This document shows positions 14,536-56,276 of a stretch of 61,401 nt of DNA, piece after piece. This DNA comes from a virus (Duplodnaviria; Caudoviricetes). Position 1 is the first letter of the stretch; each line of letters begins with the position of its first letter. The DNA is taken from the IMG/VR virus record IMGVR_UViG_3300030047_000019, positions 1-61,401 of that record, one strand, 5' to 3'. The translations under genes and the position numbers were made by a program. Under the pieces are notes generated by a model. That model saw only the letters and a list, made by a program, of their open reading frames with translations, was not told the origin of the DNA and did not search any database.

Positions 14536-14616
14536 GCATAGGTGAGAGCTGACATTCGTATTCGTGTTATCGTAGTTGTAATTCGAATTCGAAAAACTGA
14601 ACCTGGAAGACAGAAC
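14536..14616 (-). ncRNA. DGR template repeat (TR)
   Basis: 81 bp, AAY-codon rich, 22 adenines on the minus strand; differs from four VRs only at those adenines. Confidence 0.95.
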
Positions 14617-14648
14617 TAGCAGCAACGCAGCGTACAACCTTTTTTATT

Positions 14649-15056
14649 TTATTCCGGATAGAGGAAGTATTCCTGGTATTCCGCTTGGAACTTTTCGGCT
14701 ATATACATGGCCTTTTCACTTGTATCAGTGCAAAGGCGAGAGCCGACAGTCGTATGCGTGTCAGCGTAGTAGCAAATCGAATCCGAAAAACCGAACCCGG
14801 AAGACAGAACCCTATACCAGGGATAGTATTTCCATTGCGAAGGTTTGCTCCAATCTGGACGCCATCCGTTGTTAATTGCCTTGAAAATAATCAAGAGCTT
14901 ATAGGCGTTGATGATTGGTTTTCTGAACTCTTCCGGGAGCATCGATACATCGGGCAATGCAGTTGTATCAATGTTTTCCTTCGTGCAGGCATCTTCAAAC
15001 GATTTGATTGTTCTGAAATCAAATACAGGTTGGTTTTTTACTGATTTTTTGGCCAT
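14649..15056 (-). CDS. DGR target protein 1 (135 aa)
   Basis: C-terminal VR1; IKSFEDAC...GWRPDW...KYYPW...VGSRLC family. Confidence 0.9.
   Translation of the reverse strand: MAKKSVKNQPVFDFRTIKSFEDACTKENIDTTALPDVSMLPEEFRKPIINAYKLLIIFKAINNGWRPDWSKPSQWKYYPWYRVLSSGFGFSDSICYYADTHTTVGSRLCTDTSEKAMYIAEKFQAEYQEYFLYPE
14730..14810 (-). repeat. DGR variable repeat VR1
   Basis: 13 mismatches to TR, all at TR adenines. Confidence 0.95.
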
Positions 15057-15061
15057 GATTT

Positions 15062-15571
15062 TTATTGTTTAATGGTTAGAAATTGTTCGTATATATCAAT
15101 GAATTGCTTGGCAGCATAAGTGCATTTTTCCTTAGTTTCAAAGCAAAGGCGAGAGCCGACAGTCGTACTCGCGTTACCGAAGTCGTAAACCGAATCCGAA
15201 AAACCGAACCCGGAAGACAGATTGAAATATGGCCAGTATTTGTATTGATTGGAATTACTCCAATCTGGAGTCCAGCCCTGGTTAATTGCTTTTACAACAA
15301 TTTTTGCCTTTTCATAATTGATGGTATCAGCATCAAGTCCGAGGCTGGCGAAGCGTTCATTGAACTCTTCTTCAGTAGTTCCGCATTCTTCGCAGGCATC
15401 TGCAAAAGTTTTGATGTCTGTGTAGTCTCTTTTTTTGAAGTAATTTTCTCCAAAGGTTTCGATCAATACTTTCTGAAACCACACTGGTGATTCCGGAAAA
15501 AGCTTTTTTGCTGTTGTTTTTTTAAGAGTTAATTCCATCATTTTTAAATGTGTTAAACTGTTAATATTCAA
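15062..15571 (-). CDS. DGR target protein 2 (paralog; start may be 15541)
   Basis: Same domain family, C-terminal VR2. Confidence 0.9.
   Translation of the reverse strand: MNINSLTHLKMMELTLKKTTAKKLFPESPVWFQKVLIETFGENYFKKRDYTDIKTFADACEECGTTEEEFNERFASLGLDADTINYEKAKIVVKAINQGWTPDWSNSNQYKYWPYFNLSSGFGFSDSVYDFGNASTTVGSRLCFETKEKCTYAAKQFIDIYEQFLTIKQ
15143..15221 (-). repeat. DGR variable repeat VR2
   Basis: 14 mismatches to TR over 79 bp, all at TR adenines. Confidence 0.95.
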
Positions 15572-15623
15572 TTATTTATTTTCAAAATATATACTTTTAA
15601 GTAAAAAAATAACTTGATAGTTT

Positions 15624-15790
15624 ACTTACCACACACCACACTTTAAAACATTGATAATCAATTATGTTTTTTTTATGCATACCGTGTGGTAGGTTAGTGG
15701 TACGTTGTGGTAAGTAGGCAAAAAACGGCTACTTACCACATTTTTTCCTTTGGTGGCGCATGTTCTGGCGGTGTGGTAAGTGTGGTAAGT
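15624..15790. repeat. TGTGGTAAGT direct/inverted repeat cluster (putative replication origin)
   Basis: About 7 copies in both orientations, AT-rich flanks, just downstream of the VapE-like gene. Confidence 0.55.
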
Positions 15791-15851
15791 GAATTTTTAT
15801 TTTTCATTTTTTCTTTGAGTTTTTTATATATTAGTGAATTAATAGATATGT

Positions 15852-17093
15852 TTATAAAGAATCTAAATGACAGACATGGTAGGCATAAATCGAATCAATA
15901 CCACGTCTTACTTTCTTCCGGTCAAAACCCAGTTGAGTCAGGGCACGGCCAATTGCTTCATTACTCATCGATCCTCGGTCCTCCGACCGTATAAGCTTCT
16001 TTTCAATCATGCAGTTTAAAACCTCGTTGGCTTGCATCCATTCACCCTCGCCATTGATGGGTTTGCGGAAATACATGCGGATATACTTTGTACACGATGT
16101 TTCCACCCGGTACCGCTCGTTTATCATCCTGAATTCTTCCCAGTCCGACTGGTGCCAGGTATAATCAAAATCCTGTTCCATCAGCGTGACGGCTTCTGCC
16201 CACAGCTGGTCCACGTCAACCTTCATACTATACTCCTGGTTAATCGATTCGAGTTCTATCACCAGCCATCGGCGATATCCCATTCCTGAAGTAATGAAAC
16301 CACCCATTTCAGGTGTTTTATTCGAGGTAAAACATCCAGATCCCAGGCGGGGCATTTCTTTGGGAAAAGGATCCCGGGGCAAAAGCACTTGTATTGTACT
16401 TTGCGACGATACTTTCTTCAAAATCTCATTCGATCGCTTGGTTACTCCAACCAGTTCGTCAAACAGAATCATCATATTTTGAGCAAAAGCGGTCTCCACA
16501 TCAAACTTATTGATATCATCCTTCGATATGGCCAGGTATGGACGAAGTACCGGTGGCATCAAAAATTCAAAAAAGAAAGTTTTGCCTATTCCTTCATCCT
16601 GATGGACCAGTCCTAAAAACACTGAATTTGCAATGCTTTTCATAGCGCAGGCCACGGTGGCCACCAACCACTTTTTTAAGTAACTGTAAAACCTGATCTT
16701 ATAATAATCCCTGCCCTGATCGCCATATTCCCTGATGCTCAGGTGAGCGGCCAACAGGTCGATATGACTGACCCCTTTCCATTTTTCCCGAAGGCTTTCA
16801 AAATATTCGGTCACCGGGTTATAAGTAGTCATGTAGTTGGGCGATCTGAGCAGCTTTCTGAGTACCGTATCCGAGCACTGAACGCCTTCTTCAATCATGT
16901 GGATAGATATTTCCTCCCAGGTCACTCCGTACTCAAATCGCTTGCTTTTGGGCTTAATTACCGCCCTGTTTGGGTTCGGATCGAAACGGTTAACCCGTAT
17001 TTCGTAATTTTCTGAAAGAAATGCTCTGACCTCGTCAATCTTATTTTGCGAGCTTACTCTTGATTCAGTCTTTAGAGAGGATATTTTAGCCAT
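15852..17093 (-). CDS. VapE/virulence-associated E family P-loop ATPase (primase-helicase-like)
   Basis: GIGKT Walker A, ILFDEL Walker B, TSN and GYRRW motifs. Confidence 0.8.
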   Translation of the reverse strand: MAKISSLKTESRVSSQNKIDEVRAFLSENYEIRVNRFDPNPNRAVIKPKSKRFEYGVTWEEISIHMIEEGVQCSDTVLRKLLRSPNYMTTYNPVTEYFESLREKWKGVSHIDLLAAHLSIREYGDQGRDYYKIRFYSYLKKWLVATVACAMKSIANSVFLGLVHQDEGIGKTFFFEFLMPPVLRPYLAISKDDINKFDVETAFAQNMMILFDELVGVTKRSNEILKKVSSQSTIQVLLPRDPFPKEMPRLGSGCFTSNKTPEMGGFITSGMGYRRWLVIELESINQEYSMKVDVDQLWAEAVTLMEQDFDYTWHQSDWEEFRMINERYRVETSCTKYIRMYFRKPINGEGEWMQANEVLNCMIEKKLIRSEDRGSMSNEAIGRALTQLGFDRKKVRRGIDSIYAYHVCHLDSL

Positions 17094-17151
17094 GGTATAG
17101 TATAAGTTTCAAATTTTAAGTTCAAGGGTTCATGTTGTGGGTGCGATAATG

Positions 17152-17487
17152 CTAATCGTTGTCATCATCCTCCCAAAGTTTCCTTGAATATTGTACTACT
17201 GGTTCTTTCAATGCCAGAAGTTTCTTTTGCATCTCCTTAATATCCCACGAATCAATAGGCTTTGAGGTAATCATTTCAGCCATTTGGAACATCACTTCTT
17301 CAGTTACCGGATTGATAGCGTAAATTGCTGAAGGATTGAGAAGTCGTGTAAACTTCGGTTGTTGTGTCGTTTCAGGAACATCGACCCTTACAAATGTTGC
17401 AACTCCAATATTTTGTTCTGTAACCTTTCCGGCCATTTTAGTATGACCAAATAATTCAACTACTGCATTTAATTCAAATTTTTCCAT
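17152..17487 (-). CDS. Conserved hypothetical phage protein
   Basis: Start MEKFELNAVVELFGH; the ORF-track extension is repeat sequence. Confidence 0.65.
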   Translation of the reverse strand: MEKFELNAVVELFGHTKMAGKVTEQNIGVATFVRVDVPETTQQPKFTRLLNPSAIYAINPVTEEVMFQMAEMITSKPIDSWDIKEMQKKLLALKEPVVQYSRKLWEDDDND

Positions 17488-17534
17488 GATTATTAATTTT
17501 ATGTTTTTTAAACTCCTTAAACTCCTTAACCTCC

Positions 17535-18971
17535 TTAATTCCCTATCCACTCATCAGGATCTACACTCCCTTTAGCGCTGTCAAAAATCTGCGAGAAGTC
17601 CGTGCTCTTCTTACACGTAATAGTCCTCAGATCTCCCTCCCTGTTCTTGGCAATTACCAGCTGAATAATGTTCTTGATTGAATTTCCGGCTTCATCCACC
17701 CCGTCCTTGTCGTAATATTCCGGTCTCCACGGGAAAATCACCATATCGGCATCCTGCTCGATAGCACCCGATTCGCGTAAATCAGATAACATAGGGGTTT
17801 TATCCTGGCGGCTTTCAACGCCTCGATTCAACTGGCACAGCAATATCACCGGCACATTGGTCTCTTTGGCCAGCTTCTTCAGCGATCGGCTGATCTCGGC
17901 CACTTCCCGTTCCCTATTCTTCTGTCCATAGCCATTCTCCTGGGGCGACTCCACCAGCTGCAGGTAATCAATCACAATCAGCTGACATTCTCCCCTTCTG
18001 GCTTTGTTGCGTGCCACTGCCGAAATATACCTGACATTAGCCGAGGCAGTATCGTCGATGTAAATGGGTAGATTTTCCAGTTCTGTTATAGATTTATGAT
18101 AGGCATCCCAGTCAATTCCGGTCATCTTTCCCGATTTCATATTATCCTGATCGATGCCACCATTACCTAAAATTAACCTCTGGCTTAATCGGGTATCCTT
18201 CATCTCAAGCGAGAAAATACACACCGATGCACGACTTTTAGCCGCGAATTTCGAAAAGTGAAGTGCAAAAGCCGTCTTACCCATACCCGGCCTGGCTGCT
18301 ATCACGATTAAATCCGATGGCTGCCATCCATAAATGGCCCGGTTCAGATCGGCCAACCCGGTGGGTATTCCTGCCATTTCACCCCGCTGGGCTTTCTCGG
18401 CCCGTTCCACTACCTCCCGGGTAGTTTCCTTCATCACCTCGCGGATATGGCGCATGCCGGTCTTACCTGCCATCAGGTCATCGATCGCCTGCGTATTCAT
18501 CGAATAACACATCTCTGCTTCGTCAAAATTATCCTGGTAGCTCAGCGAGATGATTTCCGAACATCGGCGGATCATTTCCCTTAAAACATATTTTTCATAA
18601 ATGATCCGTGCGTGTTGTTCGATGTGTGCTGCGCTGGCAATGCGCGAAGTAAGCTGTGTGATGGCCAGTGGACCGCCAACTTCTTCGAGTAAATTCAGCT
18701 GGCGTAATTCCTGGGTAATGGTTAGTAAGTCGGTCGTTTTTCCGGTCGAAACCATCTTATCAATGACTTCGAAAATCACCTGGTGTGTATTTTTGTAAAA
18801 CATTTCGCCTGTCAGCAGGTTCGAAATCTTGTGATAGGCATCCCGCTCCAGAAGCATGGCGCCAAGCACCACCTCTTCAAGTTCAATAACCTGTGGCGGT
18901 ACCTTGCCAAAAGCGGCATCTATCTGATTAGGCAAGTTTGAATACGGTTGGTTTTTTTTCTTCTGGTCCAT
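17535..18971 (-). CDS. dnaB: Replicative DNA helicase
   Basis: AARPGMGKT, FSLEM, IDYLQL, QLNR and SDLRESGAIEQDAD motifs. Confidence 0.97.
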   Translation of the reverse strand: MDQKKKNQPYSNLPNQIDAAFGKVPPQVIELEEVVLGAMLLERDAYHKISNLLTGEMFYKNTHQVIFEVIDKMVSTGKTTDLLTITQELRQLNLLEEVGGPLAITQLTSRIASAAHIEQHARIIYEKYVLREMIRRCSEIISLSYQDNFDEAEMCYSMNTQAIDDLMAGKTGMRHIREVMKETTREVVERAEKAQRGEMAGIPTGLADLNRAIYGWQPSDLIVIAARPGMGKTAFALHFSKFAAKSRASVCIFSLEMKDTRLSQRLILGNGGIDQDNMKSGKMTGIDWDAYHKSITELENLPIYIDDTASANVRYISAVARNKARRGECQLIVIDYLQLVESPQENGYGQKNREREVAEISRSLKKLAKETNVPVILLCQLNRGVESRQDKTPMLSDLRESGAIEQDADMVIFPWRPEYYDKDGVDEAGNSIKNIIQLVIAKNREGDLRTITCKKSTDFSQIFDSAKGSVDPDEWIGN

Positions 18972-19410
18972 TATTGAGTAAATTATTGGTTATTAATTCT
19001 TCTTCCTTTACCACGTAAAAGTTAGGATTACGTTTATACATGGCATATTCCAGGTACTTCACTGCCGTTTTTGGATTGTTATCCGTAATCTCTTTCAGCC
19101 TTTTCAGCGCCATCACCTCCGATCGGCTCTTGATCCACTGTCCGTGCTGCTCCTGAAGATATTCCTTCCAGAATTTCCAGGTCGATAAAAACTCCGGATC
19201 ATTCCATGGCTCTTTCACTTCCACTGCCTTCATGGGTGAAATAAACCCATCGAAATTATTCCACGACTTCTTAAATTTATCCCAGGATTTCTTCATTTTA
19301 TTCTCGGCCTTAAAGAAGCTTACCGATTGAGGAAGCATTACAAGAAGCTCCTCCATAGCCTCCTGTAAATTGCGGACATCAGTGCCCATTTGGTCCCATT
19401 CTTCTTGCAT
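18928..19410 (-). CDS. Hypothetical protein, possible replication initiator/loader
   Basis: Directly upstream of dnaB. Confidence 0.45.
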   Translation of the reverse strand: MQEEWDQMGTDVRNLQEAMEELLVMLPQSVSFFKAENKMKKSWDKFKKSWNNFDGFISPMKAVEVKEPWNDPEFLSTWKFWKEYLQEQHGQWIKSRSEVMALKRLKEITDNNPKTAVKYLEYAMYKRNPNFYVVKEEELITNNLLNNGPEEKKPTVFKLA

Positions 19411-19480
19411 AGTGTTTCTGTTTTAATCAGATTAATCATTTAATCAGGTTAATCATAACTTGTCCCGATCCCTCGGGAGT

Positions 19481-21693: not shown

Positions 21694-21696
21694 GGC

Positions 21697-23725: not shown

Positions 23726-23729
23726 GGGT

Positions 23730-27748: not shown

Positions 27749-29008
27749 ATGAAACGACAGAAATTGTTCAGGGCGCCGCGCCTGTTTGATCAGGGCGGTG
27801 ACCTTACAAAACCCTGGTGGATCGAACTGGGGTATCGGGATCCTCGCGACGGCATGATGAAGCGTAAGCGATATCAGGATGGTTTTGCCCAGTTGCGGAC
27901 AAAAAAAGACCGGTATAAGTTTGCAGAAGAATTGATCAACAACCTCACTGCAAAACTTCTTAAAGGTTGGAACCCTACCGACGATTCATCGGTACAGGTA
28001 GTATATGTCGATGATCTGGAGTATCACCAGGCAGCTCAGGTATACGGCCGCAAACGGAAAGCAAATAAAAACGTCCGGTTCTACGCATCAGAATATGTCA
28101 CTCTTCAGAAAAGCATCAAAGCAAAAAAGACTTATGAGAGTTACCGCGGAAAGCTGCGCGAATTCGTCTCCTGGCTTGAACGGGAAAAATTAATCGATAA
28201 TGATCTTACCACCTACAACCATGATTTAATACTGCGATTTTTCGATTACCTGATCATTGATCGAAAATTAGCTGGACCAACGATTGAAAAATACAAATTA
28301 ACGCTCGATGGATTCTGGGCTTACCTCATTGATCGCAAAGCAATAAACGAAAGTCCGGTTGGTAAAATTCAATTGCCCGAAACAGGCGAAGACTTTTCAG
28401 CTATTCCTTTTCTCGACGAAGATCTTCAGCAAATACTTCCCATCATCAGATCCGAAGATCCCCAGCTATTCATGGGAGCGATGATTCAGTACTTTTGTTT
28501 TGTTCGCCCTGGTGACGAGCTACTCAAGTTAAAACTAAACCAGGTAAACTTATCGGCTCGAACAATCCATATCCCAAAAAATGTAGCAAAAAAGAGGAAA
28601 GAACGGACCGTTGATATCCCCGAACAGATGTATAAGATTTTGGTCGATCAGGGAATACAATGCTATGGCAAGGATATGTACCTGATAGGTCCGTTTGGCC
28701 GACCTGGTAACCGACCAATAGGTTATAACACTTTGCGGGGCCGCTTCAATAAATACCGTGACCGGTTGGGATTAACTGATCTTTATAAATGGTATTCATT
28801 CAAGCATACTGGCGCCGGAAAATTACTGGAGAGCGGTGCGACAATTATCGAGATCATGAACCAGCTGGGACATACTGATATCGCCTCCACCTATCGATAC
28901 ATCCGCCGTCACTTTGGCGATCGTTCGGAGCATGTCCGTACTAAGTTCCCCGATCCTCCTGGTTTCGGTTTTAATGAGGTACCGGAGTCAATTGAATTCT
29001 TTATTTAA
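27749..29008 (+). CDS. int: Tyrosine integrase
   Basis: R (VRPGDEL), K, KHTG, LGH and Y (TYRY) catalytic residues; 419 aa. Confidence 0.95.
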   Translation: MKRQKLFRAPRLFDQGGDLTKPWWIELGYRDPRDGMMKRKRYQDGFAQLRTKKDRYKFAEELINNLTAKLLKGWNPTDDSSVQVVYVDDLEYHQAAQVYGRKRKANKNVRFYASEYVTLQKSIKAKKTYESYRGKLREFVSWLEREKLIDNDLTTYNHDLILRFFDYLIIDRKLAGPTIEKYKLTLDGFWAYLIDRKAINESPVGKIQLPETGEDFSAIPFLDEDLQQILPIIRSEDPQLFMGAMIQYFCFVRPGDELLKLKLNQVNLSARTIHIPKNVAKKRKERTVDIPEQMYKILVDQGIQCYGKDMYLIGPFGRPGNRPIGYNTLRGRFNKYRDRLGLTDLYKWYSFKHTGAGKLLESGATIIEIMNQLGHTDIASTYRYIRRHFGDRSEHVRTKFPDPPGFGFNEVPESIEFFI

Positions 29009-36389: not shown

Positions 36390-38801
36390 CTAAGTCGTTT
36401 TGGTAAGCTTTAAATAACAATTAGGCTTGGCATACCACGCCTGTGAAACCTGTACACCTTTTACCTGTACCCCGATAGTGGGCGAACCTGCCGGAGTTAT
36501 GATGATCCCGCTTAAACGAACAGATTGTGCGCCTGCAACATTCTGGATCGGAATTATTCCTGACCCCTGGCCTGTTTGTCGATATGATTTATCTGCGGCT
36601 CCTGCCGTTTGCGGACCCATTACAACCCCTTCAACGGTGGCTCCGACAACACTACATTGAATACCAACCTGGCACCCCTGGGTTCCGGCAGCCGGTTGAA
36701 GCCCTATTACCGCTTCGTACTGATAGGTAGTTGAAGGTAAAACAGAAATTGGAGTAAAAATATTGGTAACGGTTTGTGCCGTACAGGCAACCTGGTTGCC
36801 TTGCACGCCAAAATCAACATGAAAACCTTCTCCCTGGTTGCCTTGCGGCCCGGTAACTGATGCCCCTTGATTGCCTTGATTTCCCTGGTTACCTGATCCG
36901 GTAGCACCTTGATTTCCTTGGTTGCCCTGCGGTCCGGTTCCGGCTGAAACAAATTCCAATCCATCTTGAGTTCCTTTTACAGCTAAAAACTTCCCTTGCT
37001 GACCGGTATAACTCGATGGACAATCGAACAACAAAATGAATTTCCCATCTTCCGTGGCAAATTGATTCCCTTCATTTCCCTGGTTTCCTTGGTTACCTTG
37101 ATTTCCAGCTCCCTGACTTCCCTGATTTCCCTGGTTACCTTGATTTCCAGCTCCCTGACTTCCCTGATTTCCTTGGTTCCCTTGATTTCCGGCTCCCTGG
37201 TTGCCCTGATTCCCCTGGTTCCCTTGTGGTCCGGTTCCGGCTGAAACAAATTCAAGCCCGTCTTGAGTTCCTTTAACAGCTACAACTTTACCTTGTTGAC
37301 CGGTATAACTCGATGGACAATCAAACAACAACGTAAACTTGGCATCAATCACCTCTACCTGGTTCCCGGCATTCCCTTGATTTCCCTGGTTCCCCTGATT
37401 CCCGGCTCCCTGATTTCCTTGGTTCCCTTGATTTCCTGCTCCCTGATTCCCTTGATTTCCCTGATTCCCCTGGTTGCCTTGGTTTCCCTGGTTACCAGCA
37501 CCTTGATTTCCTTGATTTCCTTGCGGTCCATCTTCCGGTGGTACATAACTGGCCAGCCATTCCATAAATACCGGGTCGGTCTCGGTTGTAACCGAAGCAA
37601 TTCCCTTCTGTATCTTGATCAGGTCAAAATCTATTATCGTATCCGTCTCAATAGTCGTTGATGTTCCGGTAAAACTGATCCGCACCCGGTTAATCAGGTT
37701 ACTGGTCGCCTTGAAGTCCGTAAACGGTATAGTAATGGGCTGGTAAGTGGTCAAAGAAGAATCAAATCCATATTTTCCATCCTTGATATATACAGGCTGA
37801 CTGCATACATTAAAGCCGTTCATCAGCTTAATGTAAATGCTTTCCGAAGTGCCAAACATCCGATTGGTCCGCACACTTAAAACCAGGGTCGATTGACTAA
37901 TGTCAACCGTTGTGCTTTTGATAAACGAAAACAAGATCCGGCCAAAAGTTTCCGGGTCAAACGTTACCCTTGTTTGCTTCGTACCATGCGAAGGACTTAC
38001 CGTACTTTCATAATCAATCGAAGCCGTGGCTTCGGTATGATCGGTAAACGAATCCCATTCCACATTCTCATCATAAATCATTTCATCGGTTATCGATGCT
38101 GGCGAAGTCTCCCCGGTTGCTACCAGTATATTTTCAAGTAAAAGCTGTGTGAGCGGGTCAAGCTCCGGGGCCAGCGGCGGATCGGCAGGCGTACCGGTTG
38201 CAACTCCTGAAACTGACGAAGTATTAACGTAAAACGAATCAATCCGGTCAAGCGTTCCATCGGCAGGGTCAAGGGTAATCTCATGTGCAGGCGAAGTGTA
38301 ATACTCGCCCTGTATGTAATAACCACATTCCGAAACCAAAAACACCAAATCATGCAGCCAGGTAACTGTTCCATATACCCTGTAATCCGGATCTTTCGAT
38401 TGTTTCAGGTGCAAAATCTGATCCGGGCCAATCTTTGCCTGGTCTTTCGATTCTGCTCCGATGGTTACGGGTGCATGCCCTCCAGAGAAAATCTCCACAA
38501 AGTTTTCTCTTTCTAACCCATCTACGAAAGTATAAGTATGAGTAGTGAAATTATCCTGAACCGTATCCCATTCATTAATCGTGTAATGAATAGGGACTTC
38601 ATACCCTTCTTTTGGTAGTCTTATAGTTACCGGTGCGCCTATGCTTCGGGTCCCGGGCAGAACTCTATCCAGGTATTGATCGATGGTTTCAACAACCACA
38701 TACGCAGGATCAGGCAAATTGGCAACATAGTAGTAATTGCATGATTTTGCATCATAAGGTGTCGGAATACGAACTTGTCTCGATGCGTTTATATCAATCA
38801 T
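36390..38801 (-). CDS. Collagen-like (GNQ)n tail fibre
   Basis: Three Gly-X-Y tracts, duplicated 39-aa spacer, C-terminal beta domain. Confidence 0.8.
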   Translation of the reverse strand: MIDINASRQVRIPTPYDAKSCNYYYVANLPDPAYVVVETIDQYLDRVLPGTRSIGAPVTIRLPKEGYEVPIHYTINEWDTVQDNFTTHTYTFVDGLERENFVEIFSGGHAPVTIGAESKDQAKIGPDQILHLKQSKDPDYRVYGTVTWLHDLVFLVSECGYYIQGEYYTSPAHEITLDPADGTLDRIDSFYVNTSSVSGVATGTPADPPLAPELDPLTQLLLENILVATGETSPASITDEMIYDENVEWDSFTDHTEATASIDYESTVSPSHGTKQTRVTFDPETFGRILFSFIKSTTVDISQSTLVLSVRTNRMFGTSESIYIKLMNGFNVCSQPVYIKDGKYGFDSSLTTYQPITIPFTDFKATSNLINRVRISFTGTSTTIETDTIIDFDLIKIQKGIASVTTETDPVFMEWLASYVPPEDGPQGNQGNQGAGNQGNQGNQGNQGNQGNQGAGNQGNQGNQGAGNQGNQGNQGNAGNQVEVIDAKFTLLFDCPSSYTGQQGKVVAVKGTQDGLEFVSAGTGPQGNQGNQGNQGAGNQGNQGNQGSQGAGNQGNQGNQGSQGAGNQGNQGNQGNEGNQFATEDGKFILLFDCPSSYTGQQGKFLAVKGTQDGLEFVSAGTGPQGNQGNQGATGSGNQGNQGNQGASVTGPQGNQGEGFHVDFGVQGNQVACTAQTVTNIFTPISVLPSTTYQYEAVIGLQPAAGTQGCQVGIQCSVVGATVEGVVMGPQTAGAADKSYRQTGQGSGIIPIQNVAGAQSVRLSGIIITPAGSPTIGVQVKGVQVSQAWYAKPNCYLKLTKTT

Positions 38802-50118: not shown

Positions 50119-50141
50119 GTTAGCGTATTCTGATTAAATTT

Positions 50142-50639: not shown

Positions 50640-51212
50640 TCAAAGTATCTTCATCGCCACCGAATTAACCACCGCATCCGCGTTAATCCGTGCAATTTTC
50701 TCAACCAACTCAGGCAAATACTGGTCCAGCACCGGGTTAAACCATTCAACGGCCACCCTCGGGTGCACCTGCGGACCTTTAGCCGTCCGGTTCACAAATC
50801 CGGTACCCGTCGCATGATAACCCCTTCCCACACCTTTATGAACAAACACCCCATGCCGCTCAAACTTAAAGGCTATTTTAGTGATCGTTTCATAATCTTT
50901 CTTGGTATAACTACCTATACTATCGGCCAGTTTCTTTTCTGTTTGTTTCCCATGGTCCCGGATCACAAACGACTCTGTCTTCCCATCCGAGAACCAACGA
51001 GCTGAGCTTATCAAGGCTCTTCTCACCTTGGGAACCCACATCTCAATCAGTTCATTCTGCCTCACTCCCGCAAGCATATCCTGAAGCGTTTCCTGCTCGC
51101 TGCGATTCACCAGGATAACCGGCTTCGAATTCCCATATCCTCTGCCTCCGCCAACCCTGTTGCCCGTCAGCTGATTAATCCCTGAGTTCGATGAATTCGG
51201 ATCGTATCCCAT
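50640..51212 (-). CDS. Putative neck/tail-completion protein
   Basis: GVFVHKGVGRGY...WFNPV; head-tail region. Confidence 0.55.
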   Translation of the reverse strand: MGYDPNSSNSGINQLTGNRVGGGRGYGNSKPVILVNRSEQETLQDMLAGVRQNELIEMWVPKVRRALISSARWFSDGKTESFVIRDHGKQTEKKLADSIGSYTKKDYETITKIAFKFERHGVFVHKGVGRGYHATGTGFVNRTAKGPQVHPRVAVEWFNPVLDQYLPELVEKIARINADAVVNSVAMKIL

Positions 51213-51326
51213 TTCAGTTTATTGATTATTGTTTATTCCCCGTCATTGCGAGCGTAGCGAAGCAATCTGTTATTAGAAGCTTTTTAAGCCCTCCCTTGTG
51301 GGGAGGGTTTGGGTGGGGCTTCCTTT

Positions 51327-51830
51327 TTATTCCTCCCATTTCGCTGGATTCACTTCATTACTCCTTGGAGAAGTCAGCACATATGTATACCTTATCCCGT
51401 AATTACCATCCAGTTCATTCGCTATCAGCGTCGCTTCCGAAGTCGAAAACTCAAAATTGCGGATCACTGGCGCTAATGGATTATATTTATCAGCCTTCAT
51501 CTTTATCAACAGCTCGTCCCCAATCTCCTCCATGTGGTCCCACACATCATGAATAGCGTCAAAGTTGGTCGGATCAGCCACATGATCGAGCAAAACAAAC
51601 GCTCCCCGTCGGTTTTTCAGCAGGTTATCCGACTTATTATCCATAAAATCATAACTATATCCTTCCAGAATCAAAAAAGGATGTTTAACATCCGTTCGGT
51701 TAATACCGGCCAGCACTTCATCAATCTCCATCCTGAAAAAATGCTTCTCTGTATCCGTATGCCCGATCTCCTTATGCTTCCGTGCCAGGTTCTCAAAATA
51801 ACTAACCAACTGTGAAAATTTCGCTGCCAT
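51327..51830 (-). CDS. Putative tail terminator/head-tail protein
   Basis: Position and size. Confidence 0.5.
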   Translation of the reverse strand: MAAKFSQLVSYFENLARKHKEIGHTDTEKHFFRMEIDEVLAGINRTDVKHPFLILEGYSYDFMDNKSDNLLKNRRGAFVLLDHVADPTNFDAIHDVWDHMEEIGDELLIKMKADKYNPLAPVIRNFEFSTSEATLIANELDGNYGIRYTYVLTSPRSNEVNPAKWEE

Positions 51831-51955
51831 AAAAGCCTCCCCAACCCCTCCACAGGGAGGGGCTTTTTAATTAATGGTTAATAATATCGATTACTTTCAT
51901 TGTATGTAGCGCCTTTTTTAAGCCCTCCCTTGTGGGGAGGGTTTGGGTGGGGCTT

Positions 51956-52762
51956 CTATTTCCTTTGCGCATTCTCCTTATACTTCCTGGTCATATACTG
52001 AAATATCGTATTAACCGGCATCTCTGCCCATTTATCGTTATTCAACACATCATCCCCCACAAAATTCTGAAATATCTTAATCCATGCGGTTCCGTCATCC
52101 CGAACTTTTATTGGTTCGTCCTCCTGAACTTGTTTCAGGACCTCCTCCCTCTTCTGAAAAATCAGCGGATAAGCCAGCGACAGCCATTCATGGATCAACT
52201 GGTAATTAATCACAATGGCTTCCCGGGTATTTCGGTCAAGTTTTCCGACATACCTGTAATTGCGTTGAATAAATATCTCATCAAATTTTTCATTGCGTCT
52301 CAAATAGAGTGAGGCGATGAATTTATTTAAATCGTCTTCCTTTTGGCTTTCCTGGTAATTGCTGAAGTAAGTATCGGCAAAAATAAACTGTCCAAAACTT
52401 ACGCCTTTCAGCTTAGGTTCTGGAGAATATAGGTTTGTTTCCCTGAAAAAGTTTGCAGCATAACGGTCAAAGGTTATTTTTCGAACTATGAATTCATGAA
52501 ATGGCTTGCGGCCGCCAATAAACTCAATACATTCAATCAATTTATAGCGTTCATAATCCGAGCAGTGCTTGAATAAACGATGACTTATACCCGACATTCT
52601 CGACAGAAATACCGTATCACTTATCCTGTTTTTATACAGGCAGGCTATTGAAGTCAGCTGTTTGGCTGTTATTTCCCCCCAATTCTGCGGAAATTGACCC
52701 TTTTTGGTCCGGTAAAGTGGCAAAAATCCTATTGGCCTGTATGTAATCGTAACACTCTTCAT
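51956..52762 (-). CDS. Conserved phage morphogenesis protein
   Basis: P..W.E.T N-terminus; head-tail region. Confidence 0.5.
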   Translation of the reverse strand: MKSVTITYRPIGFLPLYRTKKGQFPQNWGEITAKQLTSIACLYKNRISDTVFLSRMSGISHRLFKHCSDYERYKLIECIEFIGGRKPFHEFIVRKITFDRYAANFFRETNLYSPEPKLKGVSFGQFIFADTYFSNYQESQKEDDLNKFIASLYLRRNEKFDEIFIQRNYRYVGKLDRNTREAIVINYQLIHEWLSLAYPLIFQKREEVLKQVQEDEPIKVRDDGTAWIKIFQNFVGDDVLNNDKWAEMPVNTIFQYMTRKYKENAQRK

Positions 52763-52843
52763 ATCTGCCCTTTTAATGTCCTTAAACTCATTATTGTCCT
52801 TATCCTCATTATTTCCCGAAGGAACTTGAAACTTAAAACTTCT

Positions 52844-53827
52844 TTATCCCCAAAACGTCTTCTTCATCGCATTATCACGGTTGTAAACGCTACCTATTTG
52901 CAGCGAATACACGGGCCAGTCACTGATATGAGCAACCAGGTAACTCTTCAGCTGATCCAGGTAGGAGTTTCCATGCATCCGGTGGCGCGAATACAGCGTG
53001 GCGATGCTATCTCCACTGCTCGGTTTTTTAGTAATGATCGAATCCTTGTTTGCCGTCAAACTGTCGAAATACAAACCTTTCTCAGTCAGGTCCGCGCCCG
53101 ATTCTTCAATCAGCATAGCGGTTGACAGATAGGCAATAGGTTTTCTGATATAGGGAAGTATCGCAACAACTTTCGCTGCCGGAACATCCTTGACCATTTC
53201 TGCCTTTATTTCTTCAAAAATCGATGTTCCCAGGATCGTACGAATCTCCGTATCTTCCACCAATCCCGAATAAGATCTCAACCGAAGGAAAGTCAGTCGG
53301 CTGTTATTGATAAAAATGATCTGATCAAAGGTTTTGGTATCGGGGATGAATGCCGATTTCAGGATGGTCCAGTTGGGAGCCAGTTTAAATTCATTGAAAC
53401 TGTCAATATTGATTTCGATATACTCCAAAATTTCGTCCATGGCGTTAAACCCTGCCGTTTTAAAATACTCCTTCAGCTCGTCCTCCTGGTAATGAAATAG
53501 GCTTTTTACGGTTGTACTTTCCGTACGTTTAAAGCCCATCGATGAGATTGTTGCATTCAACACCTGGAATCCCATCCAGTATGCCAGATGGATCAGCGAT
53601 TTTTGGACCTTGCTTAGCAGTTCTTTCATGGCTTGCTGCACATCGGTAAGTTCACCATCAGGAAATTCATCGTAAAACTCCTGAAGTTCATCAAACAGCG
53701 CCGCACCAAGCAACGGCCGCATATATGCAGTCTCTGCATTCCCAATATGTGGCTTCAACTGACCCATATCCGAACCTGCTCCAATAGCAATAAACTCCTG
53801 AATCTCAACAATCGTTTTAAACAGCAT
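52844..53827 (-). CDS. DUF6712-like head-tail adaptor protein
   Basis: Two internal repeats, directly after the portal; start MLFKT. Confidence 0.6.
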   Translation of the reverse strand: MLFKTIVEIQEFIAIGAGSDMGQLKPHIGNAETAYMRPLLGAALFDELQEFYDEFPDGELTDVQQAMKELLSKVQKSLIHLAYWMGFQVLNATISSMGFKRTESTTVKSLFHYQEDELKEYFKTAGFNAMDEILEYIEINIDSFNEFKLAPNWTILKSAFIPDTKTFDQIIFINNSRLTFLRLRSYSGLVEDTEIRTILGTSIFEEIKAEMVKDVPAAKVVAILPYIRKPIAYLSTAMLIEESGADLTEKGLYFDSLTANKDSIITKKPSSGDSIATLYSRHRMHGNSYLDQLKSYLVAHISDWPVYSLQIGSVYNRDNAMKKTFWG

Positions 53828-53924
53828 GGCAAAATATTTTAAGTTTATCCTTAAACTCCTTAATGTCCTTAATGTCTTTTTAAAGCCCTCCACCTGTGGG
53901 GAGGCTTTGGGTGGGGCTTTTTTT

Positions 53925-55292
53925 TTAACTCAGTACCTTCGTCGTTCCAGCTCCCGTATCCAGCGTTGTCAATACCGTATTTCTGAATCTCCATTCAACC
54001 GTTTCGTCACCTCCGTTATACCGGTGCACGATTTCAATCGGGTCAAGTATTCCCTGCCTGTCCAGCCAGGCATTGGCCACATTCACCAGGTAAGCCTCCC
54101 TGATGTTCGATCCTCCCTGGTTTCCTGCATATGTACCACCGGGCATTCCGGCGCCCATCACGTTTGGATTCACCATGATGGCAAACATGATCTCCGAGTT
54201 GGCAGCTCCAGAAGTGATTAGGTTTTGCTGATTATCCAGTTTATTATCGAGGGGAGCAATGATCCACTGCTCTTCAGCCTTCCCGTTTTGTGGATTGATC
54301 TCGAAAAAAGTAAATATCGGCTTGTCTGCATTGTCGGTGCCGCAAAGATTATCTTCGATAGAGTCCATGTAATCTTCAATGGCTCTCTGTCGTAACGACA
54401 GGTTTTCGAAATCATTTTTGGGAAACTTACGGTCCCAGAACGAATAGGGAATTTGGATGTGCCATTTCCAGGTAATCTGGTTGGAATAAGCCTTTTTAAG
54501 AAAAGCAGGGACCATCCCGGCAATATCCACCCATCCGGCCAGATAAGCGGCATACCAAAGCGGTGACGAATAATATTCATTGTTGCTCCATGAATCACGG
54601 ATGCACATAATGAATGTTTTGCCCTTGGTCTGATTTCCAAATTTCCGGCGCTGCAGGTCTGCCATCGGATCATATTCATCGAGCACATCAATCGTTTGAT
54701 AAATTCCCGAAACGGGAATATTTGGCCATCTGCCCGAAACAACGCACTTTTCAATAACTCCCTGGTCATTGGCAGCGGTCAACCGGCAATATTTGGCATT
54801 AATCGTATTCATTCCCACAATCTGCGAACCATCGGCGTTCATCATAAATTGAACGAAAGCAATGCCATACTTCAGGTAATCGCGCATGGCTTTCTCCATA
54901 TAGCGGCGAACCATGCGACTATTGGCAAAAACAGGAAGGTTTTTATCATTCGGAGCGGCAAGTGTTTCATTGCCATTGGGGTCATAACCGGTCACAATGC
55001 AAGGATAAATACCCTGTCCAAGCGTAAAATTGCGGGTAAAACGCAACCCCGTATTCAGCACTCCCACCTTGCTGATGATGGCATCCGCGGTAGTCGGCCA
55101 TAAATTATCAGATCCCCAGCTGGCTAACGTGACACCATCAAGCCAGGTTCGGTCCAGATCCACCCCTGCCGGTTTTGGCGATGCAGTAGTTTTAGGCCTG
55201 ATTGGATCCGGAGCTCCTTTTGTAACACCCATATACGACTTACCTGAAATCATCAACGGGTCACCTGCCTTATTCCAAAGTATATCTGCCAT
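53925..55292 (-). CDS. Portal protein (putative)
   Basis: WG.DN..P, YYS.P.W and GSNIREA motifs; 455 aa. Confidence 0.7.
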   Translation of the reverse strand: MADILWNKAGDPLMISGKSYMGVTKGAPDPIRPKTTASPKPAGVDLDRTWLDGVTLASWGSDNLWPTTADAIISKVGVLNTGLRFTRNFTLGQGIYPCIVTGYDPNGNETLAAPNDKNLPVFANSRMVRRYMEKAMRDYLKYGIAFVQFMMNADGSQIVGMNTINAKYCRLTAANDQGVIEKCVVSGRWPNIPVSGIYQTIDVLDEYDPMADLQRRKFGNQTKGKTFIMCIRDSWSNNEYYSSPLWYAAYLAGWVDIAGMVPAFLKKAYSNQITWKWHIQIPYSFWDRKFPKNDFENLSLRQRAIEDYMDSIEDNLCGTDNADKPIFTFFEINPQNGKAEEQWIIAPLDNKLDNQQNLITSGAANSEIMFAIMVNPNVMGAGMPGGTYAGNQGGSNIREAYLVNVANAWLDRQGILDPIEIVHRYNGGDETVEWRFRNTVLTTLDTGAGTTKVLS

Positions 55293-55319
55293 CTCTTATA
55301 TTGTTTATTGAAAATTCAT

Positions 55320-56276
55320 TTACCGTCTTTGCGAAATACTGCCTGTCCCGATCCCTCTGGAAAATAATCTATTATTCATAACGTCTTCCCGAACTTGTTT
55401 CGGAACCACTTCTTCAACGTTTTTTTCTTGAAAACTCTTTGATTCCATAATCCTATCCAGACTATTTTTATTATATTCAGAATAAAGGAATAATTTCTGG
55501 TATTCAACTTTAAACTGTTCTGCTATATATGCAATCTTCTCTTCAGAATCAGTGCAAAGGCGAGAGCCGACAGCCGTAAGCGTGCCATCGTAGTCGTAAT
55601 CCGAAGCCGAAAAACCGAACCCGGAAGACAGAACCTCAAACCAGGGATAGTACTTATTTTGTTCAGAATTACTCCAATCCGGTCGCCATCCATTGTTGAT
55701 GGCCTTATAGATAATCAGCAGTTTGTAATATGCAATGATTGGCTTTCTGAATTGTGTAGGGATCAACCTGACATGATGCAAAAAAGTTGGAAAAATATTT
55801 TCCTTAATACGGGCATCCTCGAAGGTTTTGATTGTCCTGAAATCAAATGCAGGATTGGTTTCTGTTGATTCTGTACTTATCTCTTCCGAATATAGGAGAA
55901 AATCCTGGTATTCAATTTGGAACTGTTCGGCTATATATATGGCCTTTTCGCCTGTATCAGTGCAAAGGCGAGAGCCGACAAACGTAGACGTGAAATCGTA
56001 GTAGTAATGCGAATACGAAAAACCGAACCCGGAAGACAGAACCTCAAACCAGGGATAGTACTTATTTTGTTCATAATTACTCCAATCCGGTCGCCATCCA
56101 TTGTTGATGGCCTTATAGATGACCAGTAGTTTGTAATAAGCAAAGATTGGCTTTCTGAATTCCGCCGGGATCCACCTAAGGTAATGCAGAAAAGTCGGAA
56201 AAATATTTTCCTTACTACAGGCATCATCAAAGGTTTTGATTGTCCTGAAATCAAATGTAGGGTTGATTGTGGTCAT
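55320..56276 (-). CDS. Remote DGR target protein 3: tandem duplication of the target domain with two VRs
   Basis: Two copies of FDFRTIKTF...VGSRLCTD; contains VR3 and VR4. Confidence 0.92.
   Translation of the reverse strand: MTTINPTFDFRTIKTFDDACSKENIFPTFLHYLRWIPAEFRKPIFAYYKLLVIYKAINNGWRPDWSNYEQNKYYPWFEVLSSGFGFSYSHYYYDFTSTFVGSRLCTDTGEKAIYIAEQFQIEYQDFLLYSEEISTESTETNPAFDFRTIKTFEDARIKENIFPTFLHHVRLIPTQFRKPIIAYYKLLIIYKAINNGWRPDWSNSEQNKYYPWFEVLSSGFGFSASDYDYDGTLTAVGSRLCTDSEEKIAYIAEQFKVEYQKLFLYSEYNKNSLDRIMESKSFQEKNVEEVVPKQVREDVMNNRLFSRGIGTGSISQRR
55554..55634 (-). repeat. DGR variable repeat VR3
   Basis: 15 mismatches to TR, all at TR adenines. Confidence 0.95.
55962..56042 (-). repeat. DGR variable repeat VR4
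   Basis: 14 mismatches to TR, all at TR adenines. Confidence 0.95.

What the first reader, a model, noticed from the sequence alone, without database searches (positions are those of the whole stretch)
14536..56042. One DGR template diversifies four VRs in three small non-tail genes, including a remote two-VR gene
Seen: TR 14536-14616 differs from VR1 (14730-14810), VR2 (15143-15221), VR3 (55554-55634) and VR4 (55962-56042) at 13, 14, 15 and 14 positions, every one a TR adenine (22 adenines, 4^22 possible sequences, no stop reachable). The targets are a compact ~130-aa domain with no signal peptide, TM segment or fibre stalk. Two lie in the replication arm, one in the portal operon 41 kb away. 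Known: phage DGRs classically diversify tail receptor-binding proteins through C-terminal CLec VRs. Inference: a family of hypervariable, probably cytoplasmic binders expressed both early and late, perhaps adaptive anti-defence or host-protein-binding modules rather than tropism switches.
Basis: partly seen in the sequence, partly recalled or inferred. Interest (0 to 1): 0.9.

Follow-up and report, generated by a model that had tools for sequence, protein, structure and literature searches.

The report
Phage retroelement diversifying small non-tail proteins
A phage from peat carries a working mutagenic retroelement that rewrites a 12-residue hairpin in four copies of a small, widespread protein domain of unknown function that is not encoded among tail genes, so it may serve something other than host-range switching.

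Summary
On the minus strand an 81-nt template repeat (14536-14616, 22 adenines) lies 107 nt upstream of a DGR-type reverse transcriptase (13476-14429). It matches four variable repeats with 13, 14, 15 and 14 mismatches, all 56 at template adenines.

Both remote repeats are diversified in nature: a natural variant differs only in VR4 codons, and two VR3 forms coexist in one peat run.

Five adenine sites are fixed differences, three in an IMH-like 3' end, leaving 17 mutable sites in 11 codons.

The cassette (two small targets, TR, RT, a conserved 101-aa non-Avd protein) recurs in at least 68 of 80 related viral loci and is mobile. The two-VR gene is a 1.1-kb insertion between two genes that are neighbours in relatives.

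The targets belong to phrog_11581. No Pfam domain, solved-fold match or fusion was found, and they do not sit among tail genes. In cultured Bacteroides phage Versailles one TR serves a tail protein and a remote phrog_11581 protein.

Multi-target and non-adjacent phage DGRs are published. Function remains inferred.

The parts
13476..14429 (-). DGR reverse transcriptase, 317 aa
   Evidence: Pfam RVT_1 E 2.1e-15. phrog_1423 reverse transcriptase E 1.1e-130. 33% identity over 318 aa to BPP-1 Brt, E 3e-48, including the shared IGxxxSQxFAN stretch.
13178..13483 (-). Conserved 101-aa protein overlapping the RT stop; candidate non-Avd accessory factor
   Evidence: Found directly after the RT in 68 of 80 related loci. 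61-81% identical in 14 aligned orthologues. phrog_19665, unknown function. No Pfam, NCBIfam or PDB sequence match. hhalign to BPP-1 Avd (Bbp7) gives probability 0.16%. Its accessory role is inferred from conservation only.
14536..14616 (-). Template repeat, 81 nt with 22 A. The mutable segment is TR positions 28-62 (14555-14589). The IMH*-like 3' end is positions 64-81 (14536-14553).
14649..15056 (-). Target T1, 135 aa, phrog_11581; VR1 at 14730-14810
   Evidence: phrog_11581 E 5.7e-24. 13 of 13 mismatches to the TR at A.
15062..15538 (-). Target T2, about 158 aa (the ORF extends to a TTG at 15571; the ATG at 15538 matches orthologue starts), phrog_11581; VR2 at 15143-15221
   Evidence: phrog_11581 E 5.7e-27. 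14 of 14 mismatches at A. Orthologue N-termini. pI 5.0.
55320..56276 (-). Target T3, 318 aa: two tandem T1-type domains plus a 53-aa tail. VR4 (55962-56042) lies in the first domain and VR3 (55554-55634) in the second.
   Evidence: phrog_11581 E 1.2e-45 with 4 stretches. The two 300-nt halves are 85% identical. 14 of 14 and 15 of 15 mismatches at A. Natural VR4 variant P0281. Two VR3 forms in run X1.
55296..55339 (.). Downstream copy of a 44-nt imperfect direct repeat flanking T3
   Evidence: 82% identical to 56301-56344, spacing 1005 nt.
56301..56344 (.). Upstream copy of the 44-nt direct repeat flanking T3
56369..56402 (.). Hairpin (15-nt arms, 4-nt loop) between the 95-aa gene and T3, inside the inserted segment
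   Evidence: Absent from relatives in which the 95-aa gene abuts the portal-like gene.

Best explanation
This is an active, Avd-less diversity-generating retroelement of a temperate phage of Bacteroidota (probably Prolixibacteraceae) from peat. SHOWN: the RT (13476-14429) is a full-length homologue of BPP-1 Brt. The TR lies 107 nt upstream of it. Four VRs differ from the TR only at template adenines. VR3 and VR4, in the remote gene, vary among natural copies only at those sites. The cassette T2-T1-TR-RT-101aa recurs as a mobile module in related phages. The remote two-VR gene is a tandem duplicate of a T1-type domain, inserted with about 140 nt of upstream sequence and flanked by a 44-nt direct repeat. 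It sits between a 95-aa gene and a portal-like gene that are direct neighbours in relatives. INFERRED mechanism: TR RNA is reverse transcribed with misincorporation opposite A, and the cDNA replaces positions about 20-63 of each VR. The invariant VR sequence CGCCTTTGC, against CACCTATGC in the TR, acts as the IMH that fixes direction. The repertoire is about 15^6 x 4^5 = 1.2e10 variants of a 12-residue beta-hairpin per domain. The 101-aa protein would replace Avd. INFERRED function: the targets (phrog_11581) are soluble ligand-binding modules that present one hypervariable hairpin on a mostly helical scaffold. They are not tail-fibre tips. I put about 0.4 on an intracellular role in phage-host or phage-phage conflict (binding variable host or competitor proteins). 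I put about 0.35 on a virion-associated accessory adhesin, with the rest elsewhere. The confidence given is for the shown and mechanistic parts, not for the function.
For: The TR/VR pattern is 56 of 56 mismatches at A, and no other site exists in the record. RT homology: E 3e-48 to Brt and phrog_1423 1.1e-130. Activity: P0281 is identical to T3 at 310 of 318 residues, and all 8 differences fall in VR4 codons templated by A. In run X1 two VR3 contigs coexist at depths 9.8 and 10.4, and 7 of 7 listed differences fall on the 22 A sites. Logan contigs break at both VRs in 4 of 4 runs laid. Family: 70 of 80 loci have the RT, 68 of 80 the 101-aa gene, and 75 of 80 have two or more adjacent targets. 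Across 88 unique VRs and 37 TRs there are 1384 mismatches, of which 88 are non-A. IMH: TR position 78 is a silent Leu site, A in 32 of 37 TRs yet T in 88 of 88 VRs. CGCCTTTGC is invariant in 33 of 33 VR flanks, while synonymous sites in the neighbouring Gly and Ser codons vary. Insertion: 0 of 80 loci with the portal-like orthologue hold a target gene within 5 kb. In 14 of 14 loci printed, the 95-aa and portal-like genes are neighbours with gaps of 0-312 nt, against 1123 nt here. Non-tail: no tail family appears among the 25 commonest PHROGs of 75 upstream or 75 downstream neighbours, which are methyltransferases, primases, terS, terL, portal and HNH. Only 8 longer relatives exist, all two-domain forms, and none of the 10 long or two-domain forms scanned had a Pfam domain. 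No TM or signal core. In phage Versailles the family member sits between NinB and the replisome organiser, while the same TR also serves a tail protein next to the RT.
Against: Nothing shows where the proteins act. Virion proteins also lack signal peptides, and accessory fibres or decoration proteins can be encoded outside the morphogenesis block. T3 sits directly upstream of a portal-like gene, and the cassette often neighbours terminase and portal genes, which fits late expression. In Versailles the small protein shares its VR with a tail protein (71% over 38 aa), and its VR ends in GFRLC. The hairpin may therefore be the same recognition element as in tail C-type lectin domains and may bind the same kind of ligand. 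The Versailles record itself calls the protein 'tail protein', but this appears to rest only on the VR stretch matching phrog_5302. No hairpin or cruciform 3' of the VRs was found, so target recognition may differ from BPP-1. The accessory role of the 101-aa protein rests on conservation alone. The fold statements rest on AlphaFold models whose VR part has pLDDT about 60.
Confidence: 0.85

Rival explanations
1. Ordinary tropism DGR. The small proteins are virion-associated accessory receptor-binding or adhesin subunits, for example docking on a fibre or the capsid through the conserved N-terminal half. The DGR varies host or surface recognition as in BPP-1.
For: Phage DGR targets are mostly tail proteins (Roux 2021, PMC8144416, section 9 read). 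In Versailles the same TR diversifies a tail protein and the small protein, which share a 38-aa VR stretch ending in GFRLC. T3 lies just upstream of a portal-like gene, and cassettes often neighbour terL and portal genes. Bacteroidota surfaces vary greatly (recalled).
Against: No tail family appears among the commonest neighbours in 55 distinct loci. No anchoring or stalk domain and no fusion to any structural domain was found among 3752 representative relatives and 8 longer forms. The Versailles copy lies in the recombination and replication module. The window's own tail-fibre-like gene (36390-38801) carries no VR.
Confidence: 0.35
2. Prophage-encoded defence sensor. The proteins are made in the lysogen, and their hypervariable hairpins recognise incoming competitor phages or plasmids, like the cytoplasmic DGR-diversified 'antigen sensors' of multicellular bacteria.
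For: The phage is temperate: integrase at 27749-29008. Relatives sit as prophages in Bacteroidota genomes. Neighbours include methyltransferases and RadC. Cytoplasmic DGR targets in conflict systems are published (PMC10907252, abstract seen in the listing).
Against: No effector or signalling domain is fused or conserved next to the targets. The cassette is co-oriented with lytic genes. There are no expression data.
Confidence: 0.15
3. The remote VRs are relics. T3 arose by duplication and merely keeps sequence similarity to the TR without being a current substrate.
For: T3 is lineage-specific, being absent from 40 of 40 related records searched whole. No conserved 3' hairpin was found.
Against: P0281 differs from T3 only in VR4 codons, 8 of 8 differences. 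Two VR3 forms in one run differ at A sites only, 7 of 7. The two T3 halves are 85% identical overall, yet both VRs show zero non-A mismatches to the TR.
Confidence: 0.03

Closest known systems
Bordetella phage BPP-1 DGR (mtd-avd-TR-brt), record AY029185.2
   Same: Homologous RT (33% identity, E 3e-48). TR just upstream of the RT. Adenine-specific TR-to-VR differences. A 3' IMH-like element in which the VR and TR differ.
   Different: No Avd; a conserved 101-aa protein follows the RT instead. The targets are small and not tail proteins, with no sequence similarity to Mtd (hhalign probability 0.1%). The VR is followed by 27 to about 80 more codons instead of ending the gene. There are four VRs, two in one gene. 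No 3' hairpin was detected.
DGR of cultured Bacteroides phage Versailles (ON453897.1), worked out here
   Same: RT 47% identical. A phrog_11581 protein (WAK79127.1, hhalign probability 99.5% to the family profile) is a non-adjacent target: 16 mismatches to the TR, 15 at A. It lies in a non-structural module.
   Different: Versailles keeps a classical C-terminal VR in a 453-aa tail protein next to the TR and RT (13 mismatches, 12 at A). The window's element has only phrog_11581 targets. The Versailles family member carries a roughly 25-residue insertion before the VR. The three papers found that name this phage do not contain the term DGR (listing counts only).
Quimbyvirus DGR (Benler et al. 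2021, PMC8008677)
   Same: A Bacteroidota phage DGR with two targets. One is distal to the structural genes and lies among methyltransferases and a nuclease, and the authors read it as a non-structural conflict protein (passages read).
   Different: Both Quimbyvirus targets are reported as C-type lectin proteins, and one is structural. Its RT is split by frameshifts. I did not compare the sequences.
Avd-less 'Lineage 3/3a' DGRs of Bacteroides and relatives with the CH1 accessory (Wu et al. 2018, PMC5758913)
   Same: No avd. Host phylum. CH1 is described as 160-169 aa, acidic (pI 4.7) and without motifs (passages read), which resembles T2 (about 158 aa, pI 5.0).
   Different: Identity of T2 with CH1, or of this RT with Lineage 3, was not tested. 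The sequences are in supplements that were closed.
C-type lectin fold DGR variable proteins (Mtd, TvpA, TaqVP, AvpA; names recalled)
   Same: A hypervariable hairpin near the C-terminal end, closed by a conserved G-x-R-L-C motif. In Versailles the VR stretch is shared with a tail protein's C-terminal VR.
   Different: No Pfam lectin-type domain. No solved chain reached Z 4 or more for two models (best Z 3.6). The predicted scaffold is four helices plus one hairpin, with two helices after the VR.

Membership tests
Diversity-generating retroelement (DGR) | Reverse transcriptase of the DGR clade | tested here: met
   33% identity over 318 aa to BPP-1 Brt, E 3e-48, with the shared IGxxxSQxFAN stretch. 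phrog_1423 E 1.1e-130. Below the curated cut-offs of the group II intron, retron and Drt models.
Diversity-generating retroelement (DGR) | TR/VR pair differing only at template adenines | tested here: met
   56 of 56 mismatches at A in four VRs; p of 1e-9 to 2e-11 per VR.
Diversity-generating retroelement (DGR) | TR next to the RT on the same strand | tested here: met
   The TR ends at 14536 and the RT starts at 14429. The same order holds in relatives.
Diversity-generating retroelement (DGR) | IMH in the VR versus IMH* in the TR at the 3' boundary | tested here: met
   VR CGCCTTTGC against TR CACCTATGC. The silent site 78 is T in 88 of 88 VRs and A in 32 of 37 TRs. The sequence is invariant at the nucleotide level in 33 of 33 flanks. 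Function is inferred, not assayed.
Diversity-generating retroelement (DGR) | Hairpin or cruciform 3' of the VR, as in BPP-1 | tested here: inconclusive
   RNAalifold on 33 VR flanks gave -3.3 kcal/mol, with 0 of 6 pairs showing compensatory change.
Diversity-generating retroelement (DGR) | Avd accessory protein (present in most DGRs but not all: 29% lack accessory genes according to Wu 2018) | tested here: not met
   No Pfam hit for any small ORF of the cassette. hhalign of the 101-aa family against Bbp7 gives probability 0.16%.
Diversity-generating retroelement (DGR) | Ongoing diversification in natural populations | tested here: met
   VR4: P0281 against T3. VR3: two forms in run X1. Shown on assembled contigs, not raw reads.
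C-type lectin fold variable proteins | Sequence match to a lectin-type family (DUF1566, FGE-sulfatase, Lectin_C; names recalled) | tested here: not met
   0 Pfam families at E of 0.1 or less for T1 and T2, and only two sub-threshold unrelated hits for T3. 0 NCBIfam. The profile against Mtd gives probability 0.1%.
C-type lectin fold variable proteins | Structural similarity to solved C-type lectin fold chains | tested here: inconclusive
   Two AlphaFold models (pLDDT 79.6 and 86.6). Foldseek against the PDB gave no hit at E of 0.001 or less. VIA-align against 48,161 chains gave a best Z of 3.6. The VR part of the models has low confidence.
C-type lectin fold variable proteins | VR at the extreme C-terminus | tested here: not met
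   27 codons follow VR1 and VR2, and about 80 and 216 codons follow VR3 and VR4, including two predicted helices after each VR.
PHROG family phrog_11581 (unknown function) | Significant match to the profile | tested here: met
   E 5.7e-24, 5.7e-27 and 1.2e-45 for T1, T2 and T3. The Versailles member matches at 1.3e-78 over the full profile.
Phage tail fibre or receptor-binding protein | Encoded in the tail module, or carrying an N-terminal virion-anchoring or stalk domain | tested here: not met
   No tail family among the top 25 PHROGs of 150 neighbours. No fused domains. Presence in virions is not testable with these tools.

The most novel reading that the evidence does not exclude
phrog_11581 proteins are a large, unrecognised class of phage DGR targets built on a scaffold that is not the C-type lectin fold. 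They act inside the cell as programmable binders of host defence or competitor-phage proteins. The family in this window is a DGR lineage that has dropped the tail target altogether and uses a new 101-aa accessory protein in place of Avd.
Probability: 0.25. Interest if true: 0.85.

Novelty: new variant of a known kind. Interest (0 to 1): 0.6.

Why it matters
DGRs are the only known natural system of targeted protein hypermutation outside adaptive immunity. In phages they are understood almost wholly as tail-tip tropism switches on C-type lectin folds. Here a whole DGR lineage is devoted to a small protein domain with 3752 representative clusters in metagenomes. That domain has no annotated function, no detectable lectin domain and no place among tail genes. 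A cultured Bacteroides phage carries the same kind of target beside a classical tail target. This makes an open question directly testable: what do non-structural phage DGR targets bind? The compact scaffold (about 120 aa with a 12-residue programmable hairpin) and the Avd-less RT with its 101-aa partner are also of practical interest for DGR-based directed evolution.

Tried and rejected
A heterodimer of T1 and T2 was tested with complex prediction, using alignments A8 and A7. It returned no verdict (score 0.28, mark 0.32), so it counts neither for nor against binding.

Fold searches found no lectin-type or other solved fold above Z 3.6. Absence from those lists does not show a new fold. BFVD returned only uncharacterised phage proteins, some from crAss-like viruses. 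The ESM Atlas returned unnamed viral clusters for T1. For the 101-aa protein it gave one rank-14 cluster in which 44% of members carry Phi29_Phage_SSB (score 0.94). This is a lead only, and Pfam scans of 14 orthologues did not confirm it.

PDB sequence searches were blank for the target profile apart from a chance FN3 hit at E 0.57. They were also blank for the 101-aa profile, the portal-like protein, the 572-aa protein and the Versailles tail protein. A megablast of the cassette against GenBank phages found nothing.

No RNA holder was listed among the sequencing runs, so nothing can be said about expression. A scan for a Bacteroidota-type promoter pattern gave 3 matches against 2.1 expected, none near the cassette. 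The sigma-70 and terminator scan near T3 was at chance level.

I rejected assembly chimerism as an explanation for the VR3 variant. The other divergent contig at 55903-55980 proved to be the T1 paralogue, with 7 of 7 differences at the T1/T3 divergent sites, whereas the VR3 variant differs only at A sites.

I could not map this element onto the lineages, VR classes (Ig1, Ig2, CLec1-3) or the CH1 accessory of Wu 2018, nor onto the protein clusters of Roux 2021.

Full report
OBSERVATION. The window is a whole virus record of 61,401 bases (GC 42.7%, no terminal repeat), and almost all genes run on the minus strand. On that strand the claimed template repeat (TR, 14536-14616) is 81 nt long with 22 adenines. 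VR1 (14730-14810), VR3 (55554-55634) and VR4 (55962-56042) align to it without gaps over 81 nt, and VR2 (15143-15221) over 79 nt. They carry 13, 15, 14 and 14 mismatches, and all 56 lie at TR adenines.

A scan of both strands with the A positions left free, allowing up to 12 other mismatches, found these five places and nothing else. Given the number of mismatches, the chance that all fall on A sites is 1.3e-9 to 2.1e-11 per VR. In the reading frame of the targets the TR reads VLSSRFSFSNSNYNYDNTNTNVSSHLC, with the classic AAY codons, and no A substitution can make a stop codon.

THE ELEMENT. The ORF at 13476-14429 is a reverse transcriptase: Pfam RVT_1 at 2.1e-15 and phrog_1423 at 1.1e-130. 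It is 33% identical to BPP-1 Brt over its full length (E 3e-48) and shares the IGxxxSQxFAN stretch. It stays below the curated cut-offs for group II intron, retron and Drt models. The TR lies 107 nt upstream of it.

No Avd is present. None of the small ORFs has a Pfam match. The 101-aa ORF that overlaps the RT stop (13178-13483) shows no similarity to BPP-1 Bbp7 (hhalign probability 0.16%). Yet this 101-aa protein follows the RT in 68 of 80 related loci. It is 61-81% identical among 14 aligned orthologues and belongs to phrog_19665. I read it as the accessory factor of this DGR lineage, on conservation alone.

THE MUTABLE PART IS SMALLER THAN 22 ADENINES. At five A sites (TR positions 13, 19, 67, 74, 78) all four VRs carry the same non-A base. 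I examined 37 distinct TRs and 88 unique VRs from relatives; VRs were picked by a protein motif that itself requires the Gly and Arg residues. The TR keeps A at position 19 in 34 of 37, at 67 in 37 of 37, at 74 in 35 of 37 and at 78 in 32 of 37.

Position 78 is decisive because the motif does not constrain it. It is a silent third position of a Leu codon, yet it is T in 88 of 88 VRs. In 33 aligned VR flanks the nine bases CGCCTTTGC never vary, while the third positions of the preceding Gly and Ser codons do. This is nucleotide-level constraint on the 3' end of the VR. It is what an IMH would show, with the TR's CACCTATGC as the IMH*.

The segment that really varies is TR positions 28-62. It holds 17 adenines in 11 codons: six AAY, two TAC, one GAT and two ACG. 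That gives about 15^6 x 4^5 = 1.2e10 protein variants (my arithmetic), not 4^22. I found no conserved hairpin 3' of the VRs.

ACTIVITY, INCLUDING AT THE REMOTE GENE. The 90%-identity cluster of T3 holds a second full-length natural sequence, P0281. It matches T3 at 310 of 318 residues, and all 8 differences lie in VR4 codons that the TR templates with A. The phage occurs in at least 12 peat-metagenome runs at half or more of the sampled words.

I laid Logan contigs of four of those runs on 55300-56300. The contigs break at both VRs in all four. In run X1 two VR3 forms coexist at depths 9.8 and 10.4. All 7 listed differences between them fall on the 22 TR-adenine sites. A further divergent contig at 55903-55980 is simply the T1 paralogue. 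These are assembled contigs, not reads, so they show presence of variants, not frequencies. Among close relatives (loci L001-L004) the T1-type VR is identical while the T2-type VR has two forms.

THE CASSETTE IS A WIDESPREAD MOBILE MODULE. A search of viral contigs with the target profile returned 80 loci. Seventy-five hold two or more adjacent target genes, 70 hold the RT and 68 the 101-aa gene. The order is always T2-like (about 150-160 aa), T1-like (about 135 aa), TR, RT, 101 aa. TRs were found with 0-3 non-A mismatches in most loci. Overall there were 1384 mismatches, of which 88 were non-A.

The genes flanking the cassette in the window are almost never conserved. The VapE-like primase gene is found in 1 of 80 loci and the 89-aa ORF below the cassette in 1 of 80. 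I took the two nearest ORFs on each side in 55 distinct loci and scanned the first 75 of 79 upstream and the first 75 of 106 downstream. The commonest PHROG families were DNA methyltransferases, primases, small terminase and integrase upstream. Downstream they were large terminase, portal and HNH endonuclease. No tail family is among the 25 commonest on either side. The element therefore usually sits at the border between the DNA-metabolism and packaging modules.

Prophage copies occur across Bacteroidota. The closest, at 83-85% identity, are in Prolixibacteraceae MAGs. Others occur in Maribellus, Draconibacterium, Flavobacterium, Chitinophaga, Bacteroides and Dysgonomonas.

THE REMOTE TWO-VR GENE IS A RECENT INSERTION. 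I searched 40 related virus records whole, 13 of them at least 90% complete by CheckV. Thirty-seven have only the adjacent pair. One has three adjacent targets, one has an extra copy about 4.5 kb away, and one has an odd array. None has a distant two-domain gene.

Conversely, 80 loci that carry an orthologue of the portal-like gene (53925-55292) have no target-family gene within 5 kb (0 of 80). In all 14 loci I printed, the orthologues of the 95-aa gene (56416-56703) and the portal-like gene are direct neighbours. Gaps are 0-312 nt, and in L106 the stop and start codons overlap. In the window they are 1123 nt apart.

The gap holds a hairpin (56369-56402) and T3. T3 is bracketed by a 44-nt direct repeat that is 82% identical (55296-55339 and 56301-56344). 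T3 itself is a tandem duplication: its halves are 85% identical in DNA and about 73.5% identical to T1, but only 54.5% to T2. A 53-residue tail follows. Two-domain relatives exist elsewhere. About 17 of the best 150 representatives have two matched stretches, and all 8 longer relatives found are of this kind.

Synteny with L106 also shows that the record is circularly permuted. The label 'portal' rests on one weak PHROG match (E 2e-5).

WHAT THE TARGETS ARE. T1, T2 and both halves of T3 belong to phrog_11581, annotated 'unknown function'. The family is large. There are 728 relatives of near length in the 90%-clustered collection. A profile search of 50%-identity representatives found 3752 at E of 0.001 or less and 2057 at 1e-10 or less.

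No Pfam or NCBIfam family matches. None of the 10 long or two-domain forms scanned carries a Pfam domain. The proteins are acidic to neutral (pI 5.0-6.6), hydrophilic, and without a hydrophobic stretch.

In alignments the scaffold is well conserved and the variable columns coincide with the VR (FSxSxYxYxxTxTxVGSRLC). AlphaFold with 132 diverse sequences gave pLDDT 86.6 and pTM 0.80. The model has helices at 20-26 and 42-62, a long conserved loop, a beta-hairpin at 94-101 that carries the variable residues (pLDDT about 60), and then helices at 113-131.

Neither model matches a solved structure. Foldseek gave nothing at E of 0.001 or less. VIA-align against 48,161 chains gave a best Z of 3.6, below the usual noise level. 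The profile shows no similarity to Mtd. I therefore cannot file the domain under the C-type lectin fold, but I cannot exclude a very reduced variant either.

A CULTURED RELATIVE TIES THE FAMILY TO A CLASSICAL DGR. The only GenBank phage hit was Bacteroides phage Versailles (ON453897.1, host B. caecimuris). Its 193-aa protein WAK79127.1 is a full-length phrog_11581 member (1.3e-78; hhalign probability 99.5% to the family profile). It lies between a NinB/Orf recombination mediator and the replisome organiser.

The same genome has an RT 47% identical to the window's. That RT lies next to a TR (53832-53943) and a 453-aa tail protein, in turn following the tape-measure and tail genes. The TR matches the tail protein's C-terminal VR with 13 mismatches, 12 at A. 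It matches the small protein's VR (10550-10661), 43 kb away, with 16 mismatches, 15 at A. The single shared non-A difference lies at the 3' end.

The two Versailles targets resemble each other only in the 38-residue TR-templated stretch (71% identity, ending GFRLC). The record's 'tail protein' label for the small protein seems to come from that stretch alone (phrog_5302, residues 114-161). So phrog_11581 proteins recur as the second, non-structural-module target of Bacteroidota phage DGRs. The window's lineage has only such targets. The three papers I found that name this phage contain no occurrence of 'DGR' (listing only).

COMPARISON WITH PRINT. I read passages, not the whole texts, of three papers. 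Wu et al. 2018 (PMC5758913) report the following:
- 45 of 372 have non-adjacent targets, and phage-associated ones are nearly always within 50 kb.
- One gene carries three VRs, and internal VRs occur.
- 29% of DGRs lack accessory genes.
- An Avd-less Lineage 3/3a is restricted to Bacteroides and relatives, with an acidic 160-169-aa 'CH1' gene.

Roux et al. 2021 (PMC8144416, sections 8 and 9) state that annotated VR regions were systematically lectin folds. They note that unannotated ones are probably new lectin variants, that some viral targets are 'unknown', and that their method missed remote targets. Benler et al. 2021 (PMC8008677) describe a Quimbyvirus DGR with one structural and one non-structural target beside methyltransferases.

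The architecture is therefore not new. What may be new is a lineage devoted wholly to phrog_11581 targets, the lack of any detectable lectin fold, the conserved 101-aa partner, and the link to a cultured phage. Supplements that could show whether this family is already tabulated were closed.

VERDICT. The finding is a real and active DGR. Its multi-target, partly remote layout is a known kind of arrangement. Its target family and accessory protein are uncharacterised. I score interest at 0.6 and rate it a new variant of a known kind.

Noticed in passing
window 15625-15789: All five exact copies of CTTACCACA in the record, plus one one-mismatch copy, cluster in both orientations in the 280-nt gap between the VapE-like primase gene and T2. 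They look like iterons of a replication origin or operator sites.
   Followed up: partly
L021 (record G011), locus 1-1500 and the record's ends: A relative shows three or more T1-type genes alternating with TR-like pieces at a period of about 613 nt, with no RT within the locus. One copy has an in-frame TGA. This is either a tandem amplification of target plus TR or an assembly artefact at repeats.
   Followed up: no
L134, 2430-3374: One of 80 loci with the portal-like orthologue has an RT 61% identical to the window's about 1.6 kb upstream of that gene, but no phrog_11581 target within 5 kb. This may be a DGR with a different target.
   Followed up: no
window 4538-6151 (-): A 537-aa phage protein combines a family 2 glycosyltransferase domain with a sub-threshold Stealth CR2 match. 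It may be a host-surface-modifying (lysogenic conversion) gene.
   Followed up: no
window 56859-58188 (-): An N6-adenine methyltransferase-like gene and a RadC-like JAB gene lie directly upstream of the inserted T3 region. The same pair precedes the portal-like gene in relatives.
   Followed up: partly
window 1-2526 and 58000-61401: Synteny with L106 places genes 1933-2526 and 218-1936 upstream of the RadC gene, so the record is a circular permutation of the phage genome although no terminal repeat is present.
   Followed up: partly
ON453897.1 10181-10762 and 53630-55269 (L246, L247, L248): Cultured Bacteroides phage Versailles has a DGR with a tail-protein target and a remote phrog_11581 target. 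The record annotates the TR as a hypothetical protein and the small target as 'tail protein'.
   Followed up: yes
L036, L037, L052 (record G017): Some relatives carry three adjacent targets (T2-like plus two T1-like) before the TR and RT, so target number varies within the family.
   Followed up: partly
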